Assembly: GCA_964016885.1 (NCBI GenBank)
Contig: OZ024742.1
Coordinates: 114,824,001-114,888,000, forward strand
Length of the DNA stretch: 64,000 nucleotides
Direction of reading: 5' to 3'
DNA from: Eledone cirrhosa
Taxonomy: Eukaryota
Part shown: one piece after another, positions 1,085 to 62,845 of the stretch
How the letters are laid out: the number at the start of each line of letters is the position of its first letter
How positions within the stretch are numbered: position 1 is the stretch's first letter
Position numbers and translations under genes: made by a program
The notes under the pieces: generated by a model
What the model saw: only the letters and a program-made list of their open reading frames with translations
Database searches by the model: none
Told to the model about the DNA's origin: nothing

Positions 1085-4000
1085 TTTTTTTTTTTCTTGT
1101 ATGTAGAATATTAATCGCAATAATACATTTAGCTAAGTTCTGCTGCAATTCAATAGTATACAGTCATTTCATGAATTTGCAGGGATTTAGTGATATAACA
1201 ATGGGATTGATGAGTTAATATCTGTATACAACAACTACAACGGTACGTGATGGGGCCCACCCACAGCCGCGGCGGACAGAATGGAGAAGGCGTTTCCCCG
1301 GAGGACGGCAAGGGAGACGCGTTGGAAAAGCGACTCCAACTCGCGGGGCTCACACCGTCGGTTGGCCAGCTCAGCGCCTATGGTGGTCAGTAAGGAGGTA
1401 GTCCTGGGGCCGAGGATACGAGAAGTCTCCACTGTCAGGGGTACGACCGCAAACCTGTCGAAGAGCGACCGGTATTTGAGGAGTTTGTCCATCTCAGCCC
1501 GACGTGCAGCAGAACATGGGTCAGTCGCAGACTGCACCAGGTTGCGGCAGCAGAAAGTGTCGGTGTAAGTGGCTTCCCGGACGAAGGGTTTGCCACCGCG
1601 GAACGGGAAGATGGTCCTGCCATCTGGCCTTTTGCCGTCCCCTCGATCCAGCCCCACCGGCTCGAGCTGGGAAGGGAAGCCTTCAGCGTCCAAGCCATAC
1701 TTAATGACCTCGTTGAGGGCAGCATGGCGTGGAATGCCGCCAGCACTGTGGCGGCAGGTAAGCCGGTGGAGGCCGAAGAGTCCACGCTGGAACCGCAGCG
1801 ACATCGGTATGGCTGGCAGATCCGGTGACTGAGCCTCAGGGAAACGCCGATTCGCATGCTATGGTTGTCTAGCTGCGTGCCAATGGAGAAGGAGCCAGGC
1901 ACCATTGTGGTGTTTGGAGGCCGCACAAATATAAGCAAGTCGGTGCTGGTCGAGCTGGCGCGTGAGCCTGTCTGAAGCCATGCTTCACTGCATTTCATGC
2001 CAAGTGCGTTGAGGGGACTTGACGTCAATAGGGGGAGAAGTAGGAGGTCCTACGTCTCACAGGCGGCCTCAGTTTCTCTCAACACATAGGGTTCTGTTGT
2101 GTTTTGAAGAACCCAGATGACGAGGACGCGGCCCGTGGTTACCGACGAAAGACACGCCTGCAAAGCTAGTGAGATAGGGGACCGGAGGCCAAGGCCGCCA
2201 TACGTGACAGGTAAAGTGGCCTCTTGCCACCCTATGTTCACACTTGACGTTGCATATCCCCTCGGCTGCTGCTCGGATACAAGTATCGAGATCAGCAATG
2301 AGAGATGCCTGGGTGTAACATGGAGCGCTGCGGAGTGTATAGAGGAGCGTCGGCATGGCGAAGCAGTTCCTCAGCAGAAAGAGAGCTGGGTGGCCGTCAA
2401 TCAAGCCCAGTCGACTCGTGAGGATCTGCAACTGTTGAAGCCTGGACCTGATGGTGGAGCGGATGGCCGGCGGGTGAATGGGTGACGTGAGTATGATGAC
2501 ATCCTCTTTGGTGGTCACCTGAATCTGGCGGAGAATGGACAGCGCGTCAAAGACGGAGGCTGCAAAGCTCGCAGCATCAGGGCTGCCTTTCACCACCTCC
2601 GATTTGGCCGAGTTGACATGTAGGCCGATTCCCGGCAGGGCAGGAACCACCGATTGAAGGTCATGGCCGACCGTCCATCGCGCTTGCCTAGTGTAGCATC
2701 ATCAAGATATCTAACGTAAAGAGGGGCCGTGATACTCCAGCCGATGTGGTCAATATCAAGGGCGAACAGGAGGGTTCCCAAAGGGTCGCCCAGTTGGACC
2801 CCAATAGCCGAGGGCATCACCGTATCAGCAGCAAGGAGCCTGCATGGGGCTCCATATCACAGGTAGGCCAGCGCGTAGGCAGAGGGGTCTCGGCTGAGGA
2901 AGGCCTCGAGCAGATTATTCCGGCGTAAATATTTGAAGACATTCTTCATCTCAAACTTGACAATCAGGTGACTGGAGTCTCTGGATGTCGTTTCGATGGG
3001 CAGCTGTTGAAGAACTGCCTGGTTGCATGAGCGGCCCCTTCACCGCCATCGGACACGCCGACACCCAGTTGCACCGGACTAACCTACTCACCCAGTTCGT
3101 GTGTTACGGACTTGCATATCACCTTGGCAGCCAGTCTCCGGAAGACATTGCCCACAGCAATGCCAACCTCTTTCTTTCTGAGAGCGGTGAGGCTGGCCGA
3201 AAATAAGATGCATCTGGCGTAAGGGTCTAGGGCACCATGGATGAGCCTATTGGTGAACCCCACAATTGCACTCAGAAGGCGGCGTCTCATTGGAGAGTGG
3301 AGATGTCAACTCCTAGAGGTGGCCTGGTCGGAGACCAACAACACCTCCGCAGCTGCTAGCTGGGAATGACCTGATGGCGGACATGATGTCTGCATCAGTA
3401 GCCACAAGGAGCAAGTGGTGTTGGGTGGGGGTATATGTTTTAGATCAGTGGGTGGATCGGTGTGTTTGAGCCGCAGAGCAGCCAGGATCTACTCGGTGGT
3501 TTGGAGGTCAGTGTTCTCTGAGGCAACAACTCTGACTGCGACCGAGACATCACCCATGTTAAGCTTGTCGTTTACCTGGTCACGCAAACGCCTGGCGCTG
3601 GCCTCGGGGGTACCTGAGGGTTGAGTGTGTGACGTCCCTTGACACGCTTGGAATGGGTGCTCGCCGAAAGGATGAGACATTGGCCTTGACGAAAGCTGCT
3701 GTTGACTGGCCGCCCGGTCAGCACTGGAGCTGGGGAGGTCGAGGGAGAGTGAAGAGAAATAGAACAACCGCTCCGAGTCACTAGGTCTATTGGAGTCCAG
3801 GACATTCTCAATCGAGGAAGCAAGGGCATCGGCTACCGGCACCCGTGCCGCTCTCGGGATCCTGAGTGAGATCTTCCGGAGCCGCCTGAGACGAGCGATG
3901 TTGACCAGCGAGCCTCGGTCGTCAGGTAAGCTCGCTGTCCCATCCGGTGGTGTGCTAGACGGCCGTGGCTGGAAATATGTGGGGGAGAGGCAGCTCCTGA

Positions 4001-4330
4001 ACCTCCACGCTGCGATAGCATTGGAAGCTCGACGAGTCAAGCCAACGCAGGTGAGGTGGTCGAAGCAGCTGCACCCTAAATAGTTCCGGCCCCTCCCCTG
4101 TTTGCTAGTGGTTCTGCAAGTGCTGCAGGTGTCGATTTGGAGGGGTGGGGGAGGGACATGGGGCCTGGGACTGGGGCACCGAGCGGCATCAGCGGCGGGT
4201 GGCTGGCGTGTGTGGGTGGAAGGGAAAGTGCTGGTAAGAGGGCCTCATAGCTCACATATATATATGGATGTGCCAGAAAACAAGAGAGAAAAGAAGGGGC
4301 GCTGGAGGTGAGTCACTGATGCTGGGGTAG
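1085..4330 (-). mobile_element. CRE-clade non-LTR retrotransposon (RT + C-terminal restriction-like endonuclease), near full length, degenerate
   Basis: Fragmented ORFs with RT motifs (GIAVGNVFRRLAAK, GVQLGDPLG, YLDDATL, GGLG), CxC/H-x2-C knuckle, RH, KRPDG, KLLKY, PLTVET, FQRVSLAVLRGN; possible poly(A) at about 1085-1095. Confidence 0.88.
1235..1804 (-). pseudogene. CRE restriction-like (PD-(D/E)xK) endonuclease domain fragment
   Basis: ORF-track protein has RH...E...KRPDG...KY...ET...QR.S.A..RGN. Confidence 0.85.
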
Positions 4331-10222: not shown

Positions 10223-10231
10223 ATATATATA

Positions 10232-10790
10232 TAATAAATCAGGAAAGAAGGTTGACATGGTTTGCTATACAAAAAAGGTTTAATCACATAGCTTACATTT
10301 GTTTCACTGAGCTGGTAGGTCTAGAGATCGCTATTCGCTTATTTTCGCGTTACTCGATCGCCAATACAAAATTATAACCAGTCAGATCTTCGGAGCATGC
10401 GAGAATGAAGAAAAAACACAGGCAAGAAAAGAATATACAGGCTACTATATGAAGTAGTGATGGCATTCAATTAGAACAATAACAACAATTACAACAATGC
10501 TATTAATAAATTATTTAAGGAGACCCTAACATTACTTAGGTGGGGGGTATATAATGTATCTAACGTTACGGCGTGTAAAACTAGCTGTCATGTGGCAAAA
10601 GAAAGCGTTTGGCATGTACAGAGTATCGAAGTGTATATCAATTTTAAATTTTAAAGATAAGCTAGTGTTTACAGTCTTTCTCTAGTATACATGAGTGGGA
10701 CAACACTGTCAAAGCTAAATAGTTGTTGAGTTAATACAGAGGTTAACGAAGTAATATACGCATATATTTACGCACACACACACACATACA

Positions 10791-10848
<58 letters not shown>

Positions 10849-12448
10849 CATATACACACATGCATGTGTACATAGACACATACATACACATCAATATACA
10901 CTCGTACAAAAATATACATACATGCAAAGAGATAAGCGTGCTAATTGTAATTATGGCAACAAGAAGGTAAAGTTACATTGTAGTAGTGATATGAGAAAAA
11001 CTAGGATTTAGGATCAAATGATGGCAGCAGCTGAGAAGGAATAAGTGTGTTGGTAGATGAGGTACTTACAGACAATTATGTGGTATAGACTTGTGAAGGA
11101 TATAGTTTACTTAATGAATATATTTCTGTGGGTAGTAGGTATCCTAATTTAAAGCTATGTTATGTTGGTTCGATTCACGGAGGTTTGAATCTTATGAATT
11201 TAGTGGCAATTCTATGTCTGCAGAAGATAGATCTTTCTAACTTATTGTTAAGTAGCCTTTTTATATTGTTGAGGATATACAATAATTCAAGATCACATAG
11301 CCCGCAGTGGGACATCCCTGTACTATAGGTTTTAGCAGCCAACAACTTCGACCAGTTGATACTGTAGTTAGTGTTGCTGTCCTTCAATTCCCATACTTTT
11401 TTGGCGAGGGTTGTGGAACCCATAAGTGCATGGTTTTTCATTGAGTGTCTGTGCACATACCATCTTTTTTTAAAAGAACCCGCGGTGGATCCTATGTAAT
11501 TCCAGGTGGAGTTACCCGAGATGACCGTGCACATGTACACCAGACTCGAATCGAGACATCTGTTCGCCAATTGGCACCTATCTGGGAGGTGACAGTTACA
11601 GTTTGAGGCGCTATTTTGTGCAGCTTTTACATTCCTGTTTAGTACTCTGTTATAAGTGGGTTGTGATATACGCCCAATGGGGTTTTGCTGCTGCGCGTTT
11701 GTATGCGCTTGTGGTTGTGATGTTGTGATGTGTTTGTGCTTATGTATAGGTGCAGTTGATTTACTAGAGATATATCTGTGGTTGATCTTACGTATGTGTG
11801 AATCTATGTTAGCTGCTGTTGAGAATGAGAGTTTTATAGTAGATCTATTGAGTATTTTGTGATATCTATGCGAGATAGGGAAGTGTTTATCTATTAGTTT
11901 AAAGAATGTAGAGGGCAGTCTAGTTTTTATAGAGGAGTTGAATATTGGGTTGAACCATAGGTATTTTCTTTGTCTGTTTCTTCTATTGTTTCTTGGGTTT
12001 ACGTTATTAGTGTTTTGGCCGTTTATTCCAGGTGTTACGTATCTAACCCTATGTCTAGTCAAGCTATTCCTATTATTATGGGACCGGTTGGAGTAGTAAT
12101 TACTAGGATTGTTTACCTTGTCCTTATTCACTATATACTGCAGTTTATCTTTATGACCGGCCCTACGTAATGCTGCATTATAATAGTCAGCATGCTCGTT
12201 AAAGATTTCTAGGTTTGAGGATAAGCGGGATATTCGGAGGGATATACTACGTGCTATGGATCTATTTACGGATTTGGGGTGATTTGAGTTGTAACTAATG
12301 TAGGCAAGATTTTCATTATTTTTGTAGAAAGGTTCTATTAATCCAGTATTTAGATTTAGAGTTACATCTAGAAAATTTACCTTCTTATGGTTTAGTTCGT
12401 AGGTAATTATTAGGCCTAGTTATTGGAAGAATATTCTAATATTTTTTC
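10232..12448 (-). mobile_element. 5'-truncated inverted copy of the Naiad-like PLE (thumb + GIY-YIG + 3' UTR + pLTR)
   Basis: ORF 11175-12131 is near-identical to the C-terminal part of 14021-15307; ends in (TA)n at about 10231. Confidence 0.92.
10287..10399 (-). ncRNA. Type I HHR variant (CCGAAGA core, extended helix II)
   Basis: Reverse-complement copy of 16110-16222. Confidence 0.65.
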
Positions 12449-12537
12449 TTGTTGTTGTTGTTCTAATTGAATGCCATTACTACTTCATATAGTAGTCTAT
12501 ATATTCTTTTCTTGCCTGTGTATTTTCTTCATTCTCA

Positions 12538-12650
12538 CATGCTCCGAAGATCTGACAGGTTATAATTTTGTATTGGCGATCGAGTAACGCGAAAATAAGC
12601 GCATAGCGATCCCTAGACCTACCAGCTCAGTGAAACAAATGTAAGCCATG
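12538..12650 (+). ncRNA. Type I HHR variant in 5' pLTR
   Basis: catgct-CCGAAGA-t-ctga...tcag-t-GAAA-caaatg-TA-agc(c)atg; predicted cleavage after 12643. Confidence 0.65.
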
Positions 12651-12922
12651 TGATTAAACCTTTTTTGTATAGCAAACCATGTCAACCTTCTTTCCTGATT
12701 TATTATTACTCCAAGTGTTTACAACATAGAAATTACGGCATACCCGCAGCATCACTATGAAAACGCCTTGTTGAGTCAAACCAAGCCAAGCGTTAATATC
12801 ATCCACTACCTGGAATACCATAACTGGACTTTACCTAGGTGGACTGCATTTAACTATTATTTGTTACCCCGTATATTTAGCTCCCACCTGGTCGAGCAAC
12901 AGCATTAACGCACGGCATCAAC

Positions 12923-15307
12923 ATGGAGAAGCACCATATAGGTATGTCACTGAAAAACATACCTGTACCTACAAAAAAGGACTATACACTGGGAATGATA
13001 CGACGGATTAATGATTTCATCCGCAGGGTCAGATGGAAAGCTTACCATTTCGATAAGGGACTGAATACCAACGGAAAGGAATTTTCCAAGGAGAATTACG
13101 GGTTTAAATCCTGCAAAAACCCGCCAAACAACCCCGCACTCGATGCCTTCGAGCTGGACCTTATGAACATGATAAGTGAAACTAAATTTAAAAAAAGAAC
13201 AAATCACAACAAATTGCAAAATGACTTAAATACATTACTTAAAAAACTAAAAGACACTAACGGTATCATAGTAAAAGCAGACAAAACATCTAACGAATAC
13301 TCTATGGACATTAACACATACGATAACTTTATTCAGCGTGAACTACATAAAAAAGAAATAAAAAAACAAATGATTACACTCACCAGCATTAACATGGAGG
13401 GCCTCAAGATAGTTAATAAACTCGGAATTTCAGATAGGACCGAACCGCTAACCCCGTGCAACCCAACATTTAACATGAAGGATCACAAAAATAACTTTGA
13501 AACTAATCCCACCATTAGATTAATATGCCCATCCAAGTCAGACATAGGTAAAATTAGCAAGAACATTCTAGATAGGATAATGGCACAAATAAAGGGTAAA
13601 CTAGAAATCAATTTATGGGGCAACACTAACGAGGCAATTAAATGGTTCAATAAAATACAAAATAGGGAGACGTGTAACTTCATACAATTTGATATAGACG
13701 ACTATTATGCATCCATATCCCCAGCTACCCTAGATAAGGCGCTTATATATGCCCAAAATAACTCTGATCTTAACCATGATGAAATTGAAATAATAATAGC
13801 GGCTAGAAGGACTATCATAAAAATTGAAAATAGCTACTGGGTAAGAAAGGATAGAATAAATAGCTTCGATATAACAATGGAATCAAATCATTCTGCGCAA
13901 ATCACAGATATCGTGGGGCTATTCATAGCACACAACCTACATATGGATTTCAGTAACCTCCAAGTAGGAATTTAAAGGGACGACACGTCACTTATAGCTA
14001 GGAACCTAAACAACCAGAGCATGGAAAGACTACGAAAAAATATTAGAATATTCTTCCAAAAACTAGGCCTAAGTATTACCTACGAACTAAACCATAAGAA
14101 GGTAAATTTTCTAGATGTAACTCTAAATCTAAATACTGGATTAATAGAACCTTTCAACAAAAATAATGAAAATCTTGCCTACATTAGTTACAACTCAAAT
14201 CACACCAAATCCATAATTAGATCCATAGCACGTAGTATATCCCTCCGAATATCCCGCTTATCCTCAAACCTAGAAATCTTTAACGAGCATGCTGACTATT
14301 ATAATGCAGCATTACGTAGGGCCGGTCATAAAGATAAACTGCAGTATATAGTGAATAAGGACAAGGTAAACAATCCTAGTAATTACTACTCCAACCGGTC
14401 CCATAATAATAGGAATAGCTTGACTAGACATAGGGTTAGATACGTAACACCTGGAGTAAACGGCCAAAACACTAATAACGTAAACCCAAGAAACAATAGA
14501 AGAAACAGACAAACAAAATACCTATGGTTCAACCCAATATTCAACACCTCTATAAAAACTAGACTGCCCTTTACATTCTTTAAACTAATAGATAAACACT
14601 TCCCTATCTCGCATAGATATCACAAAATACTCAATAGATCTACTATAAAACTCTCATTCTCAACAGCAGCTAACATAGAATCACACATACGCAAGATCAA
14701 CCACAGAAATATCTCTAGTAAATCAACTGCACCTATACATAAGCACAAACACATCACAACATCACAACCACAAGCGCATACAAACGCGCAGCAGCAAAAC
14801 CCCATTGGGCGTATATCACAACCCACTTATAACAGAGTACTAAACAGGAATGTAAAAGCTGCACAAAATAGCGCCTCAAACTGTAACTGTCACCTCCCAG
14901 ATAGGTGCCCATTGGCGAACAGATGTCTCGATTCGAGTCTGGTGTACATGTGCACGGTCATCTCGGGTAACTCCACCTGGAATTACATAGGATCCACCGC
15001 GGGTTCTTTTAAAAAAAGATGGTATGTGCACAGACACTCAATGAAAAACCATGCACTTATGGGTTCCACAACCCTCGCCAAAAAAGTATGGGAATTGAAG
15101 GACAGCAACACTAACTACAGTATCAACTGGTCGAAGTTGTTGGCTGCTAAAACCTATAGTACAGGGATGTCCCACTGCGGGCTATGTGATCTTGAATTAT
15201 TGTATATCCTTAACAATATAAAAAGGCTACTTAACAATAAGTTAGAAAGATCTATCTTCTGCAGACATAGAATTGCCACTAAATTCATAAGATTCAAACC
15301 TCCGTGA
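12923..15307 (+). pseudogene. PLE reverse transcriptase-GIY-YIG polyprotein (about 794 codons) with one in-frame stop
   Basis: ORFs 12923-13975 and 14021-15307 are in the same frame; TAA at 13973-13975 replaces the Y of the G-I-Y-R-D-D catalytic motif. Confidence 0.92.
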
Positions 15308-15627
15308 ATCGAACCAACATAACATAGCTTTAAATTAGGATACCTACTACCCACAGAAATATATTCATTAAGTATATTATATCCTTCACAAGTCTATACG
15401 ACATAATTGTCTGTAAGTAGCTCATCTGCCAACAAAATTATTCCTTCTCAGCTGCTGCCATCATTTGATTCTAAATCCTAGTTTTTCTTATATCACTACT
15501 ACAATGAAACTTTACCTTCTTTTTGCCATAATTACAATTAGCACGCTTATCTCTTTGCATGTATGTATATTTTTGTACGAGTGTATATTGATGAGTATGT
15601 ATGTGTCTATGTACACATGCATGTGTA

Positions 15628-15711
<84 letters not shown>

Positions 15712-16109
15712 GGGGGGGGGGGTTCCGTAAATATATGCGTATATTACTTCGGTAACCTCTGTATTAACTCAACAACTATTTAGCTTTGACAGTGTTGTTC
15801 CACTCATGTATATAATTGAAGATGAAGAGAAAGACTGTAAACACTAGCTTATCTTTAAAATTTAAAATTGATATAGACTTCGATACTCTGTACATGCCAA
15901 ACGCTTTCTTTTCCCTCATGACAGCTAGTTTTCCACGCCGTAACGTTAGATACATTATATACCCCCCACCTAGGTAATGTTAGGTTCTCCTTAAATAATT
16001 TATTAATAGCATTGTTGTAATTGTTGTTATTGTTCTAATTGAATGCCATTACTACTTCATATAGTAGCCTGTATATTCTTTTCTTGCCTGTGTATTTTCT
16101 TCATTCTCG

Positions 16110-16222
16110 CATGCTCCGAAGATCTGACTGGTTATAGTTTTGTATTGGCGATCGAGTAACTCGAAAATAAGCGAATAGCGATCTCTAGACCTACCAGCTC
16201 AGTGAAACAAATGTAAGCTATG
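16110..16222 (+). ncRNA. Type I HHR variant in 3' pLTR
   Basis: catgct-CCGAAGA-t-ctgactggt[insert]accagctcag-t-GAAA-caaatg-TA-agc(t)atg; predicted cleavage after 16215. Confidence 0.68.
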
Positions 16223-16450
16223 TGATTAAACCTTTTTTGTATAGAAAACCATGTCTACCTTCTTTCCTGATTTATTATTACTCCAAGTGTTTACAATATA
16301 AGAATTACGGCATACCCGCAGCATCACTATGAAAACGCCTTGTTGAGTCAAACCAAGCCAAGCGTTAATATCATCCACTACCTGGAATAGCATAACTGGA
16401 CTTTACCTGGGTGGACTGCATTTAACTATTATTTGTTACCCCGTATATAT

Positions 16451-17157: not shown

Positions 17158-19480
17158 AAACCTATAAATTTCCGGTTGGTTGGTTGGTTCCACAACCAGA
17201 TAGTTGTTTATATATAGTCATAGTCCTTTCGTCACAAACTCTGTGACCTCTTCAGTGACTGGGGTTTTCTTTCTTTGTTTCTGTATCTTTCCTTTCTTCT
17301 ATCCTACGCCATTTTGTTTATGTGTGTGTGTTGTGTGCTCAGTTTGCGCATGCGCCACATCCGGGTGTCTGTGTGTGTTTGTGTTCATTTATCTATTTGT
17401 TTATTTATTTATTTATTTATTGTTGGTTGGTTGTTGTTCTATGTGTGTGTGTGTTTTGATTTTGTCCTGTGTGTGTTTTCATTTTGTCCTTAATTGTAAG
17501 TTGTCTGTTCTATGTGTGTGTGTGTTTTCATTTTGTCCTGTGTGTATTTTCATTTTGTCCTTAATTGTAAGTTGTGATGTTGCTGTTCCACTCATGTTTT
17601 CTATTTAATTTTGGTTGTAATTCTTTTATGCTTACTACCTCTGTAATTTGCCTAAACATTGCATCTTTTCTGTGTCTGGATTCTATTTTTATTTCTATGT
17701 TCACTAATCTACCCCTGTGTTCTATCTTAGCATGTTGGTAGAGCACAGATGATTCTTTATTATCTTTGAGGTCTCGCCAGTGTTCATTTATTCGTTCCCC
17801 TATACTATGAGCTGTCTCACCTATGTACACTATATTTTTGTTTCTACATTGTCCTTCAGTACATCTTATGCTATACACTACATTTCTATTTTACAGTTAA
17901 TATGGGGGCTTATTTTAGAGGTTATACATTTCTTATCTATACATGAGGGTCTTTGGAACGGGTATGTCTTGCTAATAATTGTTTTTACGGAGGTACCTGG
18001 TCTTTCTACTATCTTAATATTGAGTTTATGTTTACTTGGGGCCCTTCTAAATTTGTAGGCTAGTTCGCCTCTAGGGGTTGTATTGATGAACATTACTCTG
18101 GTATTTATTGCTATCATACCATGAGTTTATTCTATTGGCCTTGTTCTTAGTTCTTTCTATTCTATTCCAAAATTTGCTCCTATACAAAGGGCAGGTCCCA
18201 TTTATGTCATTATTTCCCATTTTTTCCCATTTGGTTCTGGCTCCTCTATACACTCTGATTCTATCTCTCTGATTGTAGCCAGAGAACTGCATACGGTGGA
18301 TGAAGTGTTGTATGTGTCTCTCTAGTTCTTCGGGGTTGCACATGCGGGACACATTTCTCATCACCCGTACCAAATCCGCAATCAGTATGTTGATTTTGGT
18401 ATGGTCCGAAATGGCCGAGTTTCAGTGGATCAGATGTCTGGAAGTGATGAGTTTGGCATAATGGGAATGGAGGATTTGTTTTTGGTTGTTAATGGTATCT
18501 AACCAGAGCTCTGTGTCTAGTACAGGTAATCCATGGTTGGGGTGTCTACTTGGGTAGTCTATAGTAACTCTAATGCTCTGGTGGATGGAGTTTGCTATTT
18601 GCTGGATGCTTTCCATTGTATTTTTTTTTAGTTCCTGGCTGTTCTTTAGTGGGGGTGTCTTAACTACGATGTTTATATCATCTACGTAGCGGGAGTACAT
18701 TATCAGGGTTAAGCTGTCTTCTAATTGTTCTTTAAGTTTTTGTTTAAGTCTACTGTCCCACCATACCATGAATAAGTTAGCTATGTCGCCTGCAATGCTA
18801 ACACCAATGGCTGCTCCTTCCTCTTGGGCATATGTTTTACCATTAAATTTGAACATATGTTCCTTAAGGGTTAATTTTATGCTGACCCCTACCGCATGTG
18901 CAATCATTTTCTTCAGTTCATCGTGGTTTTCGGGTGTCCGTATGGCTCTGGTCCACCCGTTCCATCTATCTGTGTGGGTTTTCTTGACCATTGAGGTAAT
19001 GGTAGGTGGTCTGCCTCTTGCTGGTCTTGTAGGGCACAGGTTGCTAAGGTCATAAGTGTCTAGGTAACTATTACTATGGGTAAGCTTAAGTAGAAGTCCC
19101 AGCTCACTGGTATCAATCCCACGGAACTCAACCTTGCTCTCGCTGATAATTTCTACGCATTTCTCCACAGCAAAATCCACGTCAATAGATGGATACATGG
19201 ACACAACATCCATACTGCCTATTATGCAGTTTGTTAGGTCCCCAGATCGGTTACCCGCGCCGATTCTGCTGATGAGGTCCTCCGTGCTGTCACAAACATC
19301 TGGGGACATCTCAATGATGGGGCGTATGATCAGGGAGAGGAAGTAGGATAGTCTGTAGTTACTAGCAATGTTAGCCCCACAGACTGGCCGTGTTGGGGTT
19401 CCCGCGAGAGGGTCCCAGCCCGTTTTATGGTCTTTTCGAAGCCCATACAACGCCGGCACGTCATTGTTCCAGGCCTATAT
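17154..19480 (-). mobile_element. 5'-truncated Penelope-like element (RT + C-terminal GIY-YIG), frameshifted
   Basis: LYGLRKDHK, TRPVCGA, GSMDVVSMYPSID, GAAIG, YSRYVDD, PVLD; Y.I.C...YIGET...ER..EH endonuclease at 17561-17878. Confidence 0.92.
17216..17260 (-). ncRNA. Minimal type I hammerhead ribozyme
   Basis: Reverse-complement copy of 16823-16867. Confidence 0.8.
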
Positions 19481-22141: not shown

Positions 22142-25100
22142 TGGGGATTATTTTCTTTGTTTTTGTGCCTCTCCTTTGTTCTGTCCTACGCCATCTTGTT
22201 TTTTGTGTGTGTTGTGTACTTAGTTTGCGCGTGTGTTACATCCGGGTGTCTGTGTGTGTTTATATTTCTTTATTTATTTGTTTATTTATAACCAACCAGA
22301 AATGAAATATTGTAAGCCTTAGCCAGGCTAACAAGATACTGAAAACCAACATGTTGTGTTGTCTACGAAAAACAATAACATCTCGAGAACTACTCTTCAT
22401 AAAAGAATGTGCCTCGTCCCGAGTTTACACCAATACCATCAACACCGATGTAAGGATATTACAACTCACCAAAAAGCAAGCAGATAGGCTAAAACGAACA
22501 CTAATTCTAACCATAAAAAAAGATTTACAGAGAATTAAGTAACCAAGAAAAACATAAGCGTAACCCAATACAAGAAATAACTAAGATCACCACACCAAGA
22601 GAAAAATTAATATTTATAAACCATATATGTCTTGAAGAAAAGTACATTGTTCAAGAATGTGACAAGCACTTTACAAAGAAACTAAAGTGGCTCAAACAGA
22701 TAAAACTAAATCAAGATACTTTAGAGAATGTCGATAGATACCCCGACAAAATTGACGGTATAAATATGGCCGAGATCTCATTAACAGATTAATTCAACAA
22801 CAACAACAAAATTATATACGGTAACACTATAGTCGACTCAGATGAATTATCGATATTACAGCTAACATCTAAATATGCCACATATAAGAAGGGAAATATG
22901 ATAAAATGCTTGTCAGAAATAGAAAAATCATTTAAAAAATTACGTTGGAGCTTCAAAAACAAAACAAAAACAAAATTAACAACATACGCACACACACACA
23001 CTCATACAGCACACATCCCAACAACAACAGACATACAGACACAAACAACAATAACAACAACAAACACATCAACATCAACAATAATAACACTCAGAAACAA
23101 CAACAACAGACACGCAGACGCAAACAACAATAACAACACACACAACAATAATAACATACACGCAGACAACAACAACAACACACATCAACAACAGCACACA
23201 TCAACAACAACAACAACACACACACATTCTATGCCTCTCACCAACACTACAATCTTAACAAACACACATACACAGAAAACAGGTAATGACAGTAACACAG
23301 AAATAAGGGACGGTAATATGATTGAAAGGAGAAGGTAGACTATCAATACTTAGAGAGAAAATAACCAGGACGAACACACAGACACACAAAATAGAATAGA
23401 TAAAAACAATGAGCCAGAGGAAAGAGACAGGCGTAATAATGAGAGACATAGAAACAACCATGAGGCTGTTGTTGGAAATAGAAATAGAAAAAACACAACT
23501 AACAATAACAATAGCAATAGTACACATAAAGCAGCAGCCAGGAACTCTACCTTTTATAATCCTTCCGATAAGTATTTCGACCTACGACGAGTAGACGCCA
23601 CGACTTTAGCTTTTAACAAACGCACGCAATTGCCGTAGCAGGTCGATGAATAAACAGAAGCACAATTTAGTATAGCTAGATCTAAACTTAGAAATATTAT
23701 AGAACAGCATATCAAGAAGCAACTTAGAATGGAGGCCCAGCAACTGTGAGAAAAATCTGCAAATGGCTTGCGTAAGCTCACTTGGCGCTCGTGTAATTGA
23801 GAGATTGCATGCTTTCCAACAGACAAGTCTGGCAGAATGTTGGTTGTCAGTCTGTCAAACTACATCCAGGCAATGCAACCCCACATCACTAACACAAGAG
23901 AAGTAACACCACATTAGCATGAGGATAGGGAAAAACGATATGATGATGTGAACAAATATAATGAGCCCAATAAAAGGACTGCCAACAACATCCAGGCCTG
24001 GAACAATGACGTGCAGTGACCCTGTCACAGGACCACCAACACAGCCAGTCTGTGGAGCTAACATTGCTAGTAACTACAGACTTGCCTACTTCATCTCGGT
24101 AATCATACGCCCTATCATTGAAATGTCCACAGATATATGTGACAGCACGGAGGACATCCTCGGTAGAATTGGCGAGAGTAACCGATCTAGGGATCTAACA
24201 AACTGCATAATAGATAGTATGGATGTTGTGTCCCTATATCCATCTATTGACGTGGATTTTGCTGTGGAGAAATGCGTAGAAATGATCAGTGAGAGCAATG
24301 TTAAATTGCGTGGGATTGATATCAGTGAGCTGGGACCCCTACATAAACTTAGCTATAGTAATGATTATCTAGATGCATATGACCTTAGCAGCCTGTGCCC
24401 TACAAGACCAGCAAGAGGCAGACGATCTACCATTACCTCAATGGCCAAGAAAACCCACACAGATATATGGAACGGATGGACCAGAGCTATACGGACCCCC
24501 GAAAACCATGATGAACTCAAGAAAATGATTGCACATGCGGTGGGCTCCAGTATAAAATTAACCCTTAAGGAACATATGTTCAAATTTAATGGAAAAACAT
24601 ATGCCCAAGGGGAGGGAGCAGCCATTGGTGTTAGCAATGCAGATGACATAGCTAACCTATTCATGGTATGGTGGGGCAATAGACTTAAACTTAAACTTAA
24701 AGATCAATTAGAAGACAGCAACCTCTTAACCCTGATAATGTACTCCCTCTACGTAGTAAAAACACCCACTAGATAACAGTCAGGAATTAGAGAAAAACAC
24801 CATGGAAAGCATCCAGCAAATAGCTAACTGCATCCATCAGAGTATTAGAGTTACTATAAACTACCCAAGCAAACACCCCAACCATCGATTACCTGTACTA
24901 GAAACAGAGTTCTGGTTAGATACCATTGATAACAAAAAACACATCCTCCATTCTCATTATGCCAAACCCTTGACTACCAAATATCTGATCCACCGAAACT
25001 CAGCTGTTTCGGACCATACCAAAATCAACATACTGATTGCGGATTTGGTACGGGTGATGAGAAACGTGTCCGGCATGTGCAACCCCAAATAACTAGAGAG

Positions 25101-26060
25101 ATACATACAACACTTCTTTCCACAGTATGCAGTTCTCTGGTTACAATCAGAGAGATAAAATCAGAGTATATAGAGGAGCCACAACCAAATGGGAAAACAT
25201 GGTAAATAATGATACAAATGGAACCTGCCCCTTGTATAGGAGCACATTTTCGAATAGAATAGAAATAACTAGGAATAAGGTTAATAGAATAAACTTATGG
25301 TATGATAGCAATACATACCAGCATGTAATGTGCATCGATACAACCCATAGAGGTGAATGAGCTTACACATTTAGAAGGGCCCTTGATAAACATAAAATCA
25401 ATATTATGATAGTAGAAAGACCAGGTACCTCCATAAAAAACACATATTAGCAATACATACCCTTTTCAAAGACCTCCCTGTATAGATGAGAAATGTATAA
25501 TCTGTAAATTAAGCCACCATATTAACTGTAAAACTAGAAATGTAGTATATTGCATAAAATGTACTGAAGGACAATGTAGAGATAAGAATATAGTGTACAC
25601 ATGTGAGACTGCTCGTAGTATAGAGGAACGGATAAATGAAAACAGGCAAAAGCTTCAAGATAGTAAAGAATCATCTGTACTCCACCAACAAGCTAAAATA
25701 GAACATAAGGGTTAATTAGAGAACATAGAAATAAAAATAGAATCTACACACAGAAAAGACGCAATATTTAGACAAATCACAGAGGCAATAAACATAAATG
25801 AACTCCAACCAAATTAAATAGAAAACATGAATGGAACAGCAACATCACAACTTACAATTAAGGACAAAATGAAAACACACACACATATAGAACAAACAAC
25901 CAAGCAGTAAAATGTAAATAAACAAATAAATAAAGAAATATAAACACACACAGACACCCGGATGTAACACATACGCAAACTAAGCACACAACACACACAC
26001 AATCAAGATGGCATAGGACAGAACAAAGGAGAGGCACAAAAACAAAGAAAATAATCCCCA

Positions 26061-26310: not shown

Positions 26311-26841
26311 AGTATGTATGTATACGTACATACATATATGTATACAGACGTACAGTAGCATGTATATATGTATGTATATATATACATACATGCAGGTACA
26401 CATACATATATGCACGCATCAGTTTAGCAGACGCTTATTATAGCGCTCGCATAATACAAACTGAACAGCCTGAATTTCAGGCTGTTCAGTTTGTTGACAA
26501 ACGAACAAAGCGAGCGCTATAATAAGCGTCTGCTAAACTGATGCGTGCATATATGTATGTGTACCTGCATGTATGTATATATATACATATATATATACAT
26601 GCTACTGTACGTCTGTATACATATATGTATGTACGTATACATACATACTTACATTTAAGTAAGTGCCATACTAAGAGTGAGAAATGAAATTTCGTTTTTC
26701 GTTTTCATTTTTTTTCAACTTATCGTTTTCGGTATGCCTGACCGATTTAACTCACTCAATATGCAAATTAGGCTGCTCAGCCGTTAATTTTCATAAGGAA
26801 AGTATATACTTTCGAACGTTCAACTATCTGGCAGATGGGTA

Positions 26842-26886
26842 AACGGTGCTGATGATAGCTAACAAGCTTGAAACTAGTACATCGTT
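26842..26886 (+). ncRNA. Canonical minimal type I hammerhead ribozyme
   Basis: aacggtg-CTGATGA-t-agct aaca agct-t-GAAA-ctag-TA-catcgtt; palindromic CTAG helix III; GUA cleavage after 26879. Confidence 0.88.
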
Positions 26887-27310
26887 CCTGTGTCAGTGTT
26901 GAACAAAAAGGTGACGTGGTTGCCTTAACACCGTATGGCATAAATTCAGGCTGTTCAGTTTGTTGACAAACGAACAAAGCGAGCGCTATAATAAGCGTCT
27001 GCTAAACTGATGCGTGCATATATGTATGTGTACCTGCATGTATGTATATATATACATATATATATACATGCTACTGTACGTCTGTATACATATATGTATG
27101 TACGTATACATACATACTTACATTTAAGTAAGTGCCATACTAAGAGTGAGAAATGAAATTTCGTTTTTCGTTTTCATTTTTTTTCAACTTATCGTTTTCG
27201 GTATGCCTGACCGATTTAACTCACTCAATATGCAAATTAGGCTGCTCAGCCGTTAATTTTCATAAGGAAAGTATATACTTTCGAACGTTCAACTATCTGG
27301 CAGATGGGTA

Positions 27311-27355
27311 AACGGTGCTGATGATAGCTAACAAGCTTGAAACTAGTACATCGTT
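27311..27355 (+). ncRNA. Canonical minimal type I hammerhead ribozyme (second unit)
   Basis: Identical to 26842-26886. Confidence 0.88.
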
Positions 27356-27904
27356 CCTGTGTCAGTGTTGAACAAAAAGGTGACGTGGTTGCCTTAACAC
27401 CGTATGGCATAAATTCAGGCTGTTCAGTTTGTTGACAAACGAACAAAGCGAGCGCTATAATAAGCGTCTGCTAAACTGATGCGTGCATATATGTATGTGT
27501 ACCTGCATGTATGTATATATATACATATATATATACATGCTACTGTACGTCTGTATACATATATGTATGTACGTATACATACATACTTACATTTAAGTAA
27601 GTGCCATACTAAGAGTGAGAAATGAAATTTCGTTTTTCGTTTTCATTTTTTTTCAACTTATATATATATATATATATATATATACAGACAAATCCACCAA
27701 TTAATGGTAGTGTCCAAGCCGTATAAAGTACTCAATGTAATCCGTATTTAAAAGATGTCGTGAAGCATTTCAACGATACAATTCATTGGAAGCAGAATAA
27801 AAAATGGCTGTCTTCTTCTATCTAACAATCTTAGTCTCTCAGCAATTGAGAGAAATAAAAAAACAAATTAGGAAATTCGTGAAAGATTATTATAATTGTT
27901 TCTA

Positions 27905-41799: not shown

Positions 41800-43857
41800 A
41801 AATAATAATGATGTACTCTCGTACAGCTAGTTTGATTTTTGTCGTTGCTTTTATAGTCATTAGTGTGGATATAAGTTGTAACGATGAAAGAATGGTATTT
41901 AACTAATGTATTGGTACGCGGTGGGGCCCACCCACAGCCCCGGCGGGCAGAATGGACAAGGATTATCCCCGGAGCACGGCAAGAGAGACGCGCAGGAAAA
42001 GCCACTCCAACTTGCGGGTCTCACACCTGCGGCTGGCGAGCTCAGCACCTATCGTGGTGAGTAAGGAAGTAGCCCTGGGGCCGAGGAGACCAGAGGTTTC
42101 CACTGCCAGGGGAGCGACCGCAAACCTGTCGGAGAGCGACCGGTATTTGAGGAGTTTGGCCCCTTCAGTCCGACGTGCAGCAGAACCTGGGTCAGTCGCA
42201 GACAGCACCAGGTTGCGGCTGCAGAAAGTGTCGGTGCAAGTGGCATCCCAGACGAGGGGTTGCCACCGCGGAACGGGAAGATGGCCATGCCATCTGGCCT
42301 TTTGCCGTCCTCTCGATCCAGCCCGACCGGCTCGAGCAGGGAGGGGAGCCTGCAGCGTCAGAGCCATGCTTAATGACCTTATTGAGGGCAGTATGGCGTG
42401 GAATGCGGTCGGCACTGTGGTGACAGGAAAGCGGGTGGAGGCCGAAAGAGTACACGGTGGAACCGCAGCGACATTGGTGTGGCTGGCAGATCCGGAGGCC
42501 GAGCCTCAGGGAAACGCCGATTCGCAGGCTATGGTTGTCTAGATGCGTGCCAGTGGAAAAGGATGGCAGATCATGGAGCCAGGCACCACTGTGGGGTTTG
42601 GAGGCCGCACGAAAACAAGCAAGGCGATGCTGGTCGAGCTGGCGCATGAGCCTGTCCGAGGCCAGGCTGCACTGGATGGCATCCCAAGTGCGTTGGGGGG
42701 ACTTGAAGTCAACAGAGGAAGATGGACGAGGGACATCTACTGGGCTAAGTCCCAGCCGGTCCCACGTCTCACAGGCGCCCTCACGTTCTCTGAACACAGA
42801 GGGTTCTGTTGTGTTTTGAAGAACCCTGCTGACGAGGACGGGGCGCGAGGTTACCGACAAAAGATACGCCGGCAATGCTAGTGAGATCGGGGACCGGAGG
42901 CCTAGGCCGCCATATCTGACCGGTAAAGTGGCCTGTTGCCACCCTATGTCGTCAAACTTGACGTTGCATATCCCCTCGGCTGCTGCTCGGATACAAATAT
43001 CGAGGTCAGCGAGGAGAGTTGTCTGGGTGTAGCATGGAAGGCTTCGGAGTGTATAGAGGAGCTTCGGCATGGCGAAGCAGTTCCTCAGCAGAGAGCTGGG
43101 TGGCCGTCAATCAAGCCCAGTCGGCTCGTGAGGGTCTGGAGCTATTGAAGCCTGGACCTGATGGTGGAGGGGATGGCTGGCGGGTGGTTGGGTGACCCGA
43201 GGATGAGGACATCCTCTTTGGGTGTCACCTGAACCTGGCGGAGAATGGACCGCACGTCTAAGACGGAGGCTGCAAAGCTCGCAGCATCGAGGCTGACGTT
43301 CACCACCTCCGACTTGGCCGAGATGAACTGGAGCTCGATTCCCGCCAGGGCAGAAATCACCGATTGAAGGTCTTGGCAGACCGTCCGTACGGGCCCGCCC
43401 AACGTAGCATCATCCAGATCCCAAATGTTGAGAGGGGCCGTGATACTCCGGGCCATGTGTTTAATATCAAGGTCGAACAGGATGGGTCCCAAAGGATCGC
43501 CCTGTTGGACGCAAGTAACCGAGGGTATGACCGTATGAGCAGCTAGGGGCATGCTTGGGGCTCCATATGACAGGTAGGCCAGCGTGTAGGCAGAGGGGGC
43601 ACGGCTGAGGCAGGCCTCGACCAGATGACCCCGGCGTAAAGAGTTAAAGGCATTCCTCATGTCAAGCTTGACAATGAGGTGCCTGGAGTCCCTGGATGCC
43701 GGTACCGATGGGCAGCTGCTGAAGAACTGCCTGATTGCATGAGAGTCCCCCTCACAGCCATCGGACACGCCGGCCGCCAGTTGCACCGGACTAAACTCCT
43801 CACCCAGTTCGTGTGTGACGGACTTGCAGATCACCTTGGCAGCCAGCCTCCGGAGAC
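41800..43857 (-). mobile_element. Second, 5'-truncated CRE-clade retrotransposon copy
   Basis: Collinear homology to about 1240-3140 (RRLAAK, KLDMRNAFN, VQQGDPLG, LDDATL, GGLGL, GAWL, LVWDATCTDTF, KLLKY). Confidence 0.9.
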
Positions 43858-45115
43858 AAAGGACGGTATTGTCAAGGATTATCAAATAACGATTGCTAGT
43901 TCAAAACCAAACTACCACTATCTAAATATCTTGGTAAACAATATCTGCTGACAGCCAAGGATTAAACTGATTGAAACATAACAGTTATTTGGTTTACAAG
44001 TATATATTTTATTCTACTCCAGTCTGTTTCAATGTGCATATCCAGGATTAAAACACGCGATGACGACTGGAAATAAAATTAATTGAATCATTCATCAAGA
44101 AATCTGTTTGGTATAAACAAACATTTATAATCTTTAAAAAAACTCATTTATGTTTATATATTATTGCTACTCATGAATAATGATATATTGGACTGCATTT
44201 TTTAAACTATTTTAATGACTCAATATAAGGGAGTTACGATTGCTTAAATTCAGTTCCATCCGCGAATAGACCAAATGAAAAGACACGGTCGTTCTTTGCA
44301 ACTTGTTTGAATGTAAAATATACGGAAACCACATCCACTACATTTTGAAGATCATGATGATCTTCCTTGTACTTTACACATCCACCACAGTGATATCTTG
44401 CACGTATTCCATCGTTTATATACATATCTTACCTTGGGATGAGTGTGAAAGAAACGATGTATATGCTGAATAGTATACGACAAGTAATACATCCCTGTTG
44501 AATGCAAACATTAATTTCTAATGACAGAAACGTTTTGAATTATAGGAAATAGAAACAGTTACCTTCAATAATGTATTATTAAAGTGTAATAATATTCACT
44601 AAAGTGCCGTAAGTATATTGGAAACTGTGTTGAAATAGAACATGGGATGCATCTATCGGACGTCGGGTGGCTCCTTCTGATGTTGACAATGAAAGTATAA
44701 TCTGCATCCACTGAAATTCAACTCACCTAATTACTATAAATTACTCACAGAAGCTCTTCAAGCTCTAACAAACAGGCATACAGCTACATTATTCTATTTG
44801 TTCTATTAAAAATGCGTTGTAATCTCATTTCACGTCTACTCACGCACACTTAATAAACACATCATTTCTTCTATTTGAAAAAAGAAACAAGAATAAATAG
44901 GTTGTGTCATGATGTTTGTAGGGAGACAAGCATAAAATACAATATAGTTTCAAGTTTTACAAATAGTAAGATGTTTTATCAGAAAACAAATGAAATAAAG
45001 AATTTGCTCACATACAGTGAACAGATATTCATATCAGATGCAATGTTTTCTAGAGAATTATTTGTTGTCAACTGGAATAGTTATAAAATAAATATGAATG
45101 CATAACACGGCATTT

Positions 45116-56205: not shown

Positions 56206-59200
56206 TTACAGTAATCAAAGTTCAGTTTAAGTCATTTATTTGCTTACACTTGTTTCCTCCAAACCGAGGTTTGGATTCTTCGGAGCAACTATTTATAACA
56301 TACTTGACCTCCTTTTCAACCCAAGGGACACATAAAACATATGCGCATATTGATCAACAGTGGGGTGACATTCATCAAATGAAACAGCATGGCAATTTAC
56401 ATATAAAGTGTTACATGATAAAAATAAAATAAAAGCAAGAGTGAAAATAAAGATAAACAAGAAGCGTTGGCAGTCTATGAAGATAAAGCAAGAGGAAAGC
56501 TTAGAGTAGTCAGTGCATGAAGCAATCTCCCGTGTAGCATGCACGCTTGTCTTATCTATACATGATTAGAGTGCGTCAGAATGATATTTGCAGGGTCAGG
56601 CAGTTGAAGCAGGCAATCGATCTTATAATATAGGCTGAATTATTAAGTCATTTATTCTCATACATCTGTATGATATACAGTCTCGGATGCGGGGAAACAC
56701 CAAAATATCAAAAACCTTCAACATACTATAAACCTTATTGTATCGTAGGCAAGGTCGTACCACTGTCCTTGCTCACACCACCACTCACATAATCCATGTG
56801 ACGCAATATATATATAGAAAACACGCGTCTATCGTATAATTCGCAGTGGTTCAGCATATAGTCGAGCTATAAACGGTATCCAGTCGGTTCTAATTAATAT
56901 ATCATACTGTCCAAATTCCGGAAGTGCCTGAATGATTAAGGGGAATTAATGCGTAAGGGGAGGTAATTAGCTAGTTATTTTAGTTACATTACTATGCTAA
57001 ACTACATTAATGGTGATTCAAATACGTGCCTATCATGTGAAGTTATAACTAATATCTAGAGTATGGTACCCATTTATAAGTTAGAGAGTTGTTCATTAAG
57101 AAGTACAAGGATGTATATACTAGGATGATTGCCAACCAATAATTAAGGGGTGTCATATCTGAACGTTCTATAAGAGGAGTCGGACTCTCAAGTCACTGCT
57201 CCTTGCAAATGTAATACAACAGTAGGACCTGGTATGGTCCCACTATTATATATGCCACCCTGTAGGCTCCGGGTCATTGCTTGCCCGCATCTCCAGTAAA
57301 TCTTCGGTATGGTCCGGAGATCCGATCTCTCATATAAACGCACTAGTCTGGCCATCAGGTAATAGACAACCCCCGTCTCAAGTATAAATCAATTATGTAT
57401 CACATCTCCAAGCTAGAGTGGAGTCTATTAATAGGTATTAAAGGAGTCCACATCAAGATGATTACGTTCATAATTCAATGAACTGATCGCTTACAGTATA
57501 TACTCACTTAACAATACGATTATCTATCTAATCATCGATCTATCTCTTGGTGGTAATCCATGCACAGGACTATGCTATCACAACCAGTACCGTGTCCCCA
57601 GTTTATACTAATCTTATATTTGTGCAATGCAGAATAAGTAGTCCACGGTCGGGATATCAGTACTATAGGTACAAGGGGGTATTCCCAGGGTAGGTGGCAC
57701 TCAAATGCTGTCAGTATTATCTTTAGAGTATAGAGATGGGTGTGGATGTGAGGTGTAAGGTGTGCTACTGATGTTAATTGCTAGGGGTGGTGCCGTTTCC
57801 AGTCTGACATTATTATATATAGGGTTTAAAGTTTTGGAACGAGTGTCGGAAGCGGTGTTGGCAATTTGCGAACACTTCTGATTTTTTATTAAGGAGATTA
57901 TGTTTAGAGAAGATGATAGTATGGGTCTCTAGTAGACAGAGGTTACAAAATTTATCATGTGGTTTGTACGATGTTGCACTACCTACCACTTCCCATTTAA
58001 GTGTATATATTTAATTTTTAGTTTTTAGATAGTGTATGTAGCTAGATAGTGAGGTGGAGTTGGCTAGACTGTGTTTTTTGAAAGAGTGGAGGTGCGAATT
58101 GTATCTATTTTTTAAGCAGTTAGAAGTGGAGCCTATGTAGGTTTCAGAAGAGCTGTTAGTTGTGACTGTACATGAGTATATGATATCCTTGGTTAAGCAT
58201 TTGTTATCTAAAGGGCAGGTTCTACTTGATCTACAGTTACAATTACTCTGGGTGCTAGTCTGCCGGTTACTATGCTGTGTAGAAGTTTGGAGGTTAGCTA
58301 TAGGGTTATGGTTATGCGGGTTGTGGTACGCAGCGTTAATGTTTACACTAGTGCTATTACCACTATTTCCATTGATATTACGGTTATTTGTTATAATGTT
58401 ACTTTGACTGTCATTTTGAATGTTATTTTGAAGGTTCATCGACCGTTGTGATTTAGTTTGTTGGAAGTAACAATTATTTTTTCTTTTATTTGTACTAGCT
58501 ATGTGGTATGCTAAGTTAGGCGTAGTAGAGTATGAGATCTTGATAGTGTTTTTGTTTAAAAGGCCGTGGTACCTGTGGCCGGATGGGAAGTGTTTATCTA
58601 GTAGTGAGAAGAAAGTCCTAGGAAGGTTGGTAGAGACGTTTAAATTGAAAGGAGGGTTGAAAAATGTATTATCTCTTCTTCTATTTCTGTTTATTATGTC
58701 TGGTGATTTGTTTCCTTTAATGTTCCTATGGTCATTTCTGTGGTGCGGGTTACTCCTGTTGTTACAATCCCTATTAGTGTGTGTGCAGTTGCTATTCTTA
58801 TTATTAAATTTTCTCATGGACATGTTGTGTGAAATGATATTGTAGCTATGTGTTTTTGTAGGTAGGAACTCTATCCCTGTATTATGGCCTGATCTAGCTA
58901 ATGCCTGATTATAATACTGCGAGTTATTGTTAAATGTGTTTATGTCATACGATAGATTAGAGATTCTATTAGATACTCCCTTAGAGATAGAGTTCAATAT
59001 AGATTTAGGGTGGTTAGACTTGGTATCTACGTAGATGAGTTTTTCATTAGGTTTGTGGAAAGGTGCATATATCATTGAGTCTAAGTAGAGTGTGGCGTCT
59101 AGGAAGTTGACGTTTTTGGTGTTTTTGTCCATGGTAATACTAAGGTTAAAGTTTTTGAATGTTTTGTGCAATAGTTTTCTAGTCCTTTCTATATTGAATT

Positions 59201-59797: not shown

Positions 59798-62845
<3,048 letters not shown>

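What the first reader, a model, noticed from the sequence alone, without database searches (positions are those of the whole stretch)
12538..12650. Hammerhead with CCGAAGA core and an 81-nt branched helix II domain
Seen in three copies (10287 -, 12538 +, 16110 +): helix I catgct/agc.atg, core CCGAAGA, helix II ctgactggt/accag(c)tcag enclosing further stems (gatcg/cgatc), then GAAA-caaatg-TA. A different Naiad family has the same scaffold with a compact helix II at 56240-56288, which supports the reading. Inference: helix II hosts an inserted structured domain (protein-binding, RT-recognition or regulatory) that standard HHR searches would miss.
Basis: partly seen in the sequence, partly recalled or inferred. 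Interest (0 to 1): 0.75.

Follow-up and report, generated by a model that had tools for sequence, protein, structure and literature searches.

The report
Long-armed hammerhead in Hydra-clade retrotransposon
The terminal repeat of an abundant Penelope-like jumping gene carries a hammerhead ribozyme motif with one arm stretched into an 81-base rod whose pairing is kept by matched changes across related element families; the RNA likely cuts itself slowly, and the rod likely serves as a docking site for the element's own copying protein, neither of which has been tested.

Summary
Confirmed: a type I hammerhead motif (C for U at core position 4, 81 nt between the core halves, predicted cut after 12643) in three window copies. 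Two corrections: the host is a Hydra-clade Penelope-like element, not a Naiad, and the arm is an unbranched rod, not branched. The genome holds 665 exact-pattern copies plus a larger sister subfamily. Related families (RT 59-72% identical) keep the rod: between two lineages 8 of 8 doubly changed pairs still pair, and two short non-canonical blocks stay nearly invariant while loops diverge. A close sister subfamily has the same rod with a canonical U4 core and GUC site, so rod and U4C are independent. Hammerheads in Hydra-clade repeats are published, but the 26 Hydra rows I read are all compact with U4. Against a special function: a compact-armed family is more abundant, and unrelated long arms lack the blocks. 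Cleavage and protein binding are untested; no RNA run was available. The scan noted this arm before on other pieces of this genome, and long arms in other genomes. New variant of a known kind.

The parts
12536..12652 (+). Type I hammerhead motif, 5' pLTR copy (the finding): helix I 5' strand 12536-12543, core 12544-12550, helix II domain 12551-12631, GAAA 12632-12635, helix III to 12642, predicted cut after 12643, helix I 3' strand 12644-12652
12551..12631 (+). 81-nt helix II rod: U-U closing mismatch, 9-bp basal stem with one bulge, 8x1 internal loop, middle stem with bulged A, 5x5 internal loop, 3-bp apical stem, 8-nt loop
12572..12575 (+). Conserved block 1, 5' side (bulged A then U.G, U-A, G.U); partner 12614-12616
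12582..12585 (+). Conserved block 2, 5' side (G-C, then A.G, G.A or U-A, U.U oppositions); partner 12604-12607
16108..16224 (+). Same hammerhead in the 3' pLTR; predicted cut after 16215; private change at 16161 breaks an apical pair
10285..10401 (-). Same hammerhead in the inverted 5'-truncated copy; identical to the commonest subfamily sequence over 115 nt; predicted cut after 10294
12449..12876 (+). 5' pseudo-LTR (direct repeat of 16021-16448, 96%); unit length 3572
12923..15307 (+). Hydra-clade PLE ORF, RT then C-terminal GIY-YIG; interrupted by an in-frame TAA at 13973-13975 in this copy
16021..16448 (+). 3' pseudo-LTR, ending about +239 from the predicted cut in TA repeats
10231..12448 (-). 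Inverted 5'-truncated copy of 14034-16278 (96%), ending about +59 from the predicted cut in (TA)n
56240..56288 (-). Compact (20-nt helix II) hammerhead with the same U4C core, of a more distant family with the same RT-EN order and CxCx5C linker (RT about 50% identical)

Best explanation
This is the type I hammerhead motif in the pseudo-LTR of a Hydra-clade Penelope-like retrotransposon, with helix II extended into a conserved unbranched 81-nt rod; it likely self-cleaves slowly after the GUA at 12643 (likely as a dimer or with protein help), and the rod likely acts as a sequence-specific docking site for the element's own RT-endonuclease close to where reverse transcription would start. Shown: position in the pLTR, host clade motifs, covariation of the rod, near-invariance of two non-canonical blocks, copy 3' ends about 55-60 and 230-240 nt downstream of the predicted cut. 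Inferred: folding in vivo, cleavage, dimer formation, protein binding, and that the 3' ends mark RT start sites.
For: Core and position: all other core positions canonical; helix I covaries between families; sister subfamilies carry U4, GUC and a palindromic helix III with the same rod (5 of 5 readable cores in two subfamilies are CUGA). Rod: RNAalifold on a sequence-only alignment of 13 copies predicts 22 pairs, 10 with changes on both sides; L080 vs L140: 8 of 8 doubly changed pairs kept, clumping of changes into pairs p=2e-4; family I, left out of the model and barely alignable to the finding's arm (z 0.9), folds into the same architecture. Blocks: a pattern for the four block strands matches 60 of 65, 13 of 13 and 11 of 12 distinct arms in the three lineages; the wobble pairs U.G and G.U are not converted to Watson-Crick pairs (13 of 13 and 12 of 13) while neighbouring pairs swap. 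The three lineages form one protein clade (SH-aLRT 99, quick tree). Geometry: microsatellite junctions lie at +54..+71 in 52 of 100 and +217..+237 in 42 of 100 copies. Literature: a lizard PLE hammerhead cleaved only with the element's protein, and copy ends matched RT start sites downstream of it (PMC11167929, passages); U10.1-U11.1 and U4C are tolerated natural variants (PMC3088659, section 8 and a passage).
Against: No experiment or RNA data. A family with a 20-nt helix II has 3081 exact-pattern copies and similar 3'-end spacing (+39..+53 in 32 of 59), so the rod is not needed for PLE mobility in general. 24 other long arms (47-115 nt; two are artefacts of compact copies) lack the blocks (0 of 24), so long arms are widely tolerated here. 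The blocks were picked by eye from the same lineages, so their invariance has no valid p-value; the covariation rests on about three lineages, not 13 independent rows. U4C considerably lowers activity in vitro, and this subfamily's helix III is not palindromic (predicted duplex -0.7 vs -6.4 kcal/mol for the palindromic form), so these copies may barely cleave. Copy 5' ends show no clear pile-up at the predicted cut. In the lizard element, catalytic mutants did not affect insertion in vitro.
Confidence: 0.5

Rival explanations
1. Tolerated insert: helix II grew by insertion and is selected only to fold back on itself so that the hammerhead core can still form; it binds nothing.
For: Many unrelated long arms in this genome without the blocks; compact family thrives; apical and 5' internal loops diverge freely; a few internally deleted arms exist.
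Against: Structure-only selection would not be expected to hold a bulged A, two wobble pairs and an A.G/U.U loop nearly fixed across lineages whose arms are 51-56% identical; arm length stays 75-85 nt in most copies of the three lineages; deleted arms are rare (6 matches at 43-72 nt vs 665 at 73-102 nt).
Confidence: 0.25
2. Tertiary brace: the rod docks on helix I, on flanking RNA or on the partner ribozyme of a dimer and raises cleavage, offsetting the weak core.
For: Helix I-II contacts speed natural hammerheads and are proposed to offset core variants such as U4C (PMC3088659, passages); non-canonical blocks are typical docking surfaces (own knowledge).
Against: The rod occurs with U4 as well as C4, and C4 occurs with a compact arm, so the two are not coupled; the blocks start more than 9 bp from the core; by eye I saw no conserved pairing partner in helix I or the flank (not tested by computation).
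Confidence: 0.15
3. Catalytically retired scaffold: in this subfamily the hammerhead no longer cuts and the whole fold is kept as a packaging or priming signal.
For: U4C, U-U closing pair, non-palindromic helix III, no clear 5'-end pile-up at the cut, single copies fold no better than shuffles.
Against: The cleavage triplet stays GUH (GUA, GUC, GUU) and the other core positions are kept across lineages (the pattern searches impose most of this, the 3'-anchored sample does not impose the 5' core); one copy begins exactly at +1 (L372).
Confidence: 0.1

Closest known systems
Hammerheads of Hydra-clade Penelope-like elements (Craig et al. 2021, PMC8557442; section 11, passages, supplement parts 2-3 read)
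   Same: Type I motif near the 3' end of a C-terminal-EN PLE inserted in (TA)n; very short helix III; many published rows also have U after the core and U before GAA.
   Different: All 26 Hydra rows of File S2 have a CUGA core and a compact helix II (stems 3-7 bp, loops 3-10 nt); here CCGA and 81 nt. Two spike-moss PLE-X rows have loops of about 30-35 nt and are flagged as deviating.
Minimal type I hammerheads of metazoan PLEs (Cervera and de la Pena 2014, PMC4209133; parts 1-2 of 4 read)
   Same: In pLTRs; unstable helix III implying dimers; low activity in vitro; high family diversity.
   Different: Described helix II is 6-8 bp with conserved G10.1-C11.1; no long conserved arm and no U4C in the parts I read.
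Protein-assisted hammerhead of the Anolis Poseidon element PAc (Frangieh et al. 2024, PMC11167929; passages)
   Same: Hammerhead upstream of two internal RT start sites that define copy 3' ends; uncut RNA is the template.
   Different: Other PLE clade; the two 3' ends here are about 175-180 nt apart rather than 30-40; no long helix II mentioned in the passages I read.
Naiad elements (same paper, PMC8557442)
   Same: (TA)n preference, pLTRs, inverted 5'-truncated copy.
   Different: Naiads have an N-terminal endonuclease and a DKA motif; this ORF is RT then EN with DKT at the homologous place.

Membership tests
Type I hammerhead ribozyme | Three helices around the core, helix I open | tested here: met
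   helix I pair changes on both sides between families (UA 7, GC 6 of 13)
Type I hammerhead ribozyme | Core CUGANGA | tested here: not met
   C at position 4 in the finding; a known natural, slower variant; U4 in 5 of 5 readable cores of two sister subfamilies
Type I hammerhead ribozyme | GAAA, A15.1-U16.1 and NUH triplet | tested here: met
   GAAA at 12632-12635, GUA ending 12643; GUC in the sister subfamily
Type I hammerhead ribozyme | R10.1-Y11.1 pair closing helix II | tested here: not met
   U-U here; reported as natural and the best-tolerated mismatch; frequent in published Hydra rows
Type I hammerhead ribozyme | Site-specific self-cleavage | not testable with these tools
   No RNA holder listed; genomic 5' ends inconclusive
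Dimer-cleaving PLE hammerheads | Short palindromic helix III | tested here: inconclusive
   2-bp helix; loop not palindromic in this subfamily, palindromic in the sister subfamily, G/H and compact families
Hydra-clade PLE | Single ORF, RT then C-terminal GIY-YIG | tested here: met
   Pfam itself gave no RT or GIY-YIG hit on these two ORF parts
Hydra-clade PLE | RWK motif and DKG changed to DKT | tested here: met
   RWK at 37, DKT at 120 in the invariant ADK column block; the strings DKG (44) and DKA (271) also occur, at non-homologous places
Hydra-clade PLE | CxCX5C linker, no CX2-5CxxC, no CCHH; CxxC and CxH near the C-terminus | tested here: met
   CxCx5C at 303, no CX2-5CxxC, one Cys only inside the GIY-YIG motif, CxxC at 401, CxH at 429 of the second ORF part
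Hydra-clade PLE | Insertion in (TA)n | tested here: met
Hydra-clade PLE | Generally under 3 kb | tested here: not met
   unit length 3572; a tendency in the paper, not a strict rule
Hydra-clade PLE | Placement among published Hydra RTs in a tree | not tested
   published proteins were not available as tool sequences; the tree used 7 unnamed homologues as outgroup
Naiad | N-terminal GIY-YIG, DKA motif | tested here: not met
Kink-turn / SECIS core | Tandem sheared 5'-GA/AG with 3-nt bulge, or UGA/GA quartet under a long apical stem | tested here: not met
   definitions recalled; the 5x5 loop is symmetric, the apical stem is 3 bp, a UGA/GA-like set occurs only in some subfamilies; no such Rfam match

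The most novel reading that the evidence does not exclude
A clade of Hydra-type Penelope elements has grafted a dedicated protein-recognition module onto helix II of its hammerhead: a rod with two non-canonical blocks about one helical turn apart that is bound by the telomerase-like RT, coupling RNP assembly and priming to a protein-switched self-cleavage. It would be the first defined RNA recognition element for a PLE reverse transcriptase and would show that long-armed, U4C hammerheads are an overlooked class in animal genomes.
Probability: 0.3. Interest if true: 0.8.

Novelty: new variant of a known kind. Interest (0 to 1): 0.52.

Why it matters
What PLE hammerheads do, and how the telomerase-related PLE RT picks its RNA, are open questions (PMC8557442 and PMC11167929, passages). 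A covarying rod with near-invariant non-canonical blocks, present in thousands of copies beside natural compact-armed and U4 controls, gives exact nucleotides to mutate in binding, cleavage and priming assays. It also shows that published search patterns (CUGANGA, short spacers) miss many animal hammerheads.

Tried and rejected
Rfam: 0 hits at gathering threshold in the window; 64 weak matches over 6 loci, none a hammerhead, nearly all miRNA models. Viral contigs: 18 pattern matches, none confirmed. Sequencing runs: no RNA holder listed. Contigs from runs labelled as other organisms carry variants of the arm but at low depth, in short pieces, and with changes that match this genome's own subfamilies, so I do not count them as other species. 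Cleavage footprint in copy 5' ends: none of 41 alignments (some loci overlap) nearer than -13; 1 of 30 at +1; by eye about 4 of about 31 distinct places among the first 100 of 141 matches fit +1 within 2-4 nt, one being that same copy, near the 2-3 expected from an even spread: inconclusive. Downstream-100 identities are inflated by shared (TA)n tails (seen) and were not used. Pair counts on the model-fitted alignment A3 lean to the model and were not used as main evidence. MAFFT misaligned family I against the others, so it was folded apart. K-turn and SECIS readings rejected on geometry. Lunse et al. 2017 on PLE hammerhead variants is not held; I saw only its citation and a review's passages, so U4C or long arms may be reported there. 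The model could not be run on the whole genome, so family counts come from exact patterns and are lower bounds.

Full report
Observation. The motif is at the stated place: helix I, core CCGAAGA (12544-12550), 81 nt, GAAA, a 2-bp helix III, GUA ending at 12643, helix I. Copies lie at 16116-16215 (+) and 10393-10294 (-), and a compact form at 56283-56245 (-). My relaxed descriptor found 5 motifs in the window and 0.02 per shuffled window (100 shuffles). The three long copies belong to one insertion: a pseudo-LTR repeated at 12449-12876 and 16021-16448 and an inverted 5'-truncated copy at 10231-12448. The 12538 copy has five differences from the commonest subfamily sequence, the 16110 copy two, the minus-strand copy none. 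Single copies fold no better than shuffles. Rfam finds nothing.

Host element. The ORF 12923-15307 (one in-frame TAA in this copy) reads RT then GIY-YIG. Craig et al. 2021 (PMC8557442; section 11, passages, supplement parts 2-3) define Naiads by an N-terminal endonuclease and the Hydra clade by RWK, DKT, a CxCX5C linker, no CCHH, CxxC and CxH near the end, and (TA)n targets. The ORF meets these motif tests; the 3.6-kb unit is longer than the usual under 3 kb, and I could not place it in a tree with published Hydra proteins. The compact hammerhead's element has the same order and linker. The Naiad label is therefore wrong for both.

Abundance. Exact patterns give 665 matches with a 73-102 nt arm, 6 with 43-72 nt and 3081 with a compact arm, all with 0 reversed-pattern controls. 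A 3'-anchored pattern for a sister subfamily with GUC and a palindromic helix III gives 2131 matches; in the 20 distinct contexts examined it carries the same arm or a truncated part of it. There, position 4 is C in 10, U in 5 (all in two older subfamilies), 2 show a change at G5, and 3 are unreadable. The long arm and U4C are thus independent traits.

The arm is a conserved unbranched rod. Looser patterns (29, 25 and 39 matches) revealed divergent families G, H and I (my labels). Their RTs are 59-72% identical to each other across lineages and about 50% to the compact family; F, G/H and I form a clade with SH-aLRT 99 in a quick tree (28 rows, one short row dropped, ORFs linked to hammerheads by adjacency, which is uncertain for a few). 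From 31 candidate rows I aligned 13 of the 20 F/G/H rows by sequence alone, dropping 7 that were redundant, decayed or carried indels, and keeping the 11 family I rows apart. RNAalifold predicts one rod of 22 pairs, 10 with changes on both sides. For my 30-pair model 93.5% of cells pair against 82.3% in shuffles and 30-37% in slid controls; the rows are related, so this is about three lineages. Between L080 and L140, of 24 pairs 14 are unchanged, 2 changed on one side (1 kept) and 8 on both (8 kept); changes clump into pairs with p=2e-4. Family I (9 rows), not used for the model, folds into the same order of stems and loops. No branch point appears in any of these folds.

Two blocks stand out. 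Block 1 is a bulged A followed by U.G, U-A, G.U; block 2 is a G-C pair followed by A.G, G.A (or U-A) and U.U oppositions, about one helical turn further out. A pattern for their four strands matches 60 of 65 F/J, 13 of 13 G/H and 11 of 12 I arms; a stricter one matches 44 of 56, 11 of 15, 10 of 13 and 0 of 24 other long arms. I chose the blocks by eye from these lineages, so I give no p-value. Their geometry does not fit a kink-turn or SECIS core (definitions recalled).

Mechanism. Copy 3' ends fall at +54..+71 (52 of 100) and +217..+237 (42 of 100) from the predicted cut, and similarly in G/H, I and the compact family. In the lizard element PAc such ends are RT start sites, uncut RNA is the template, and the hammerhead cleaves only with the element's protein (PMC11167929, passages). 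PLE hammerheads with short helix III are slow and thought to act as dimers (PMC4209133, parts 1-2; PMC6765202, passages). U4C lowers activity but supports viroid infectivity, and U10.1-U11.1 is natural (PMC3088659, section 8 and passages). I infer slow, assisted cleavage, and a rod that docks the element's protein just upstream of the priming sites (0.5). Against it: compact-armed elements are more numerous with similar 3' spacing; many unrelated long arms exist; this subfamily's helix III is not palindromic; genomic 5' ends do not clearly mark the cut. Rivals are a merely tolerated insert (0.25), a tertiary brace (0.15) and a retired catalyst (0.1).

Comparison and novelty. Hammerheads in Hydra-clade pLTRs are published, but all 26 Hydra rows in File S2 have a CUGA core and compact helix II, and two spike-moss elements reach loops of about 30-35 nt. 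Six literature searches listed no paper whose title or abstract opening describes a long conserved helix II in PLE hammerheads; I also saw passages of PMC13725137 and PMC10085705 and part 1 of 5 of the retrozyme preprint 10.64898/2026.07.22.740005 (its supplements are closed). Lunse et al. 2017 was not available and may bear on U4C. No relative with the rod was found outside this genome. Earlier notes of this scan reached the same reading on other pieces of this genome and report long arms in other genomes; I looked them up after forming my reading, and they are not independent support. Verdict: real, a new variant of a known kind, interest 0.52.

Noticed in passing
window 60678-60761 (+): A fifth hammerhead motif with a CUGA core, 53-nt helix II and a palindromic helix III, from another family.
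   Followed up: partly
L023, L038, L049, L092, L110, L125, L139, L141, L149, L152, L164, L168, L321-L323: About ten further families with 60-115 nt helix II arms unrelated to the rod; some fold as truly branched arms (L139, L149, L168). A few lie beside Hydra-type ORF pieces.
   Followed up: partly
L357-L386: 5 of 23 resolved copy 5' ends fall at -91..-115 from the predicted cut, at the 5' edge of the hammerhead; many inverted pairs join inside the motif. Cause unknown.
   Followed up: partly
window 16275 and 16455: Two preferred 3' ends about 175-180 nt apart, much longer than the 30-40 bp tail described for PLEs; compact and I families show similar pairs of ends.
   Followed up: partly
window 12644-12922: The 279 nt between the predicted cut and the ORF start contain upstream AUGs with short reading frames.
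   Followed up: no
window 17539-19474 and 23952-25883: Inverted pair of another RT-bearing element (weak RVT_1 match) without a hit to my hammerhead descriptor.
   Followed up: no
window 1235-4244 and 41907-43900: Two decayed copies (85% alike) of a non-LTR element with what looks like a restriction-like endonuclease motif (label recalled).
   Followed up: no
window 26473-27710 and 50510-50879: A 469-bp tandem repeat with an adjacent inverted arm, and a GC-rich 69-bp minisatellite.
   Followed up: no
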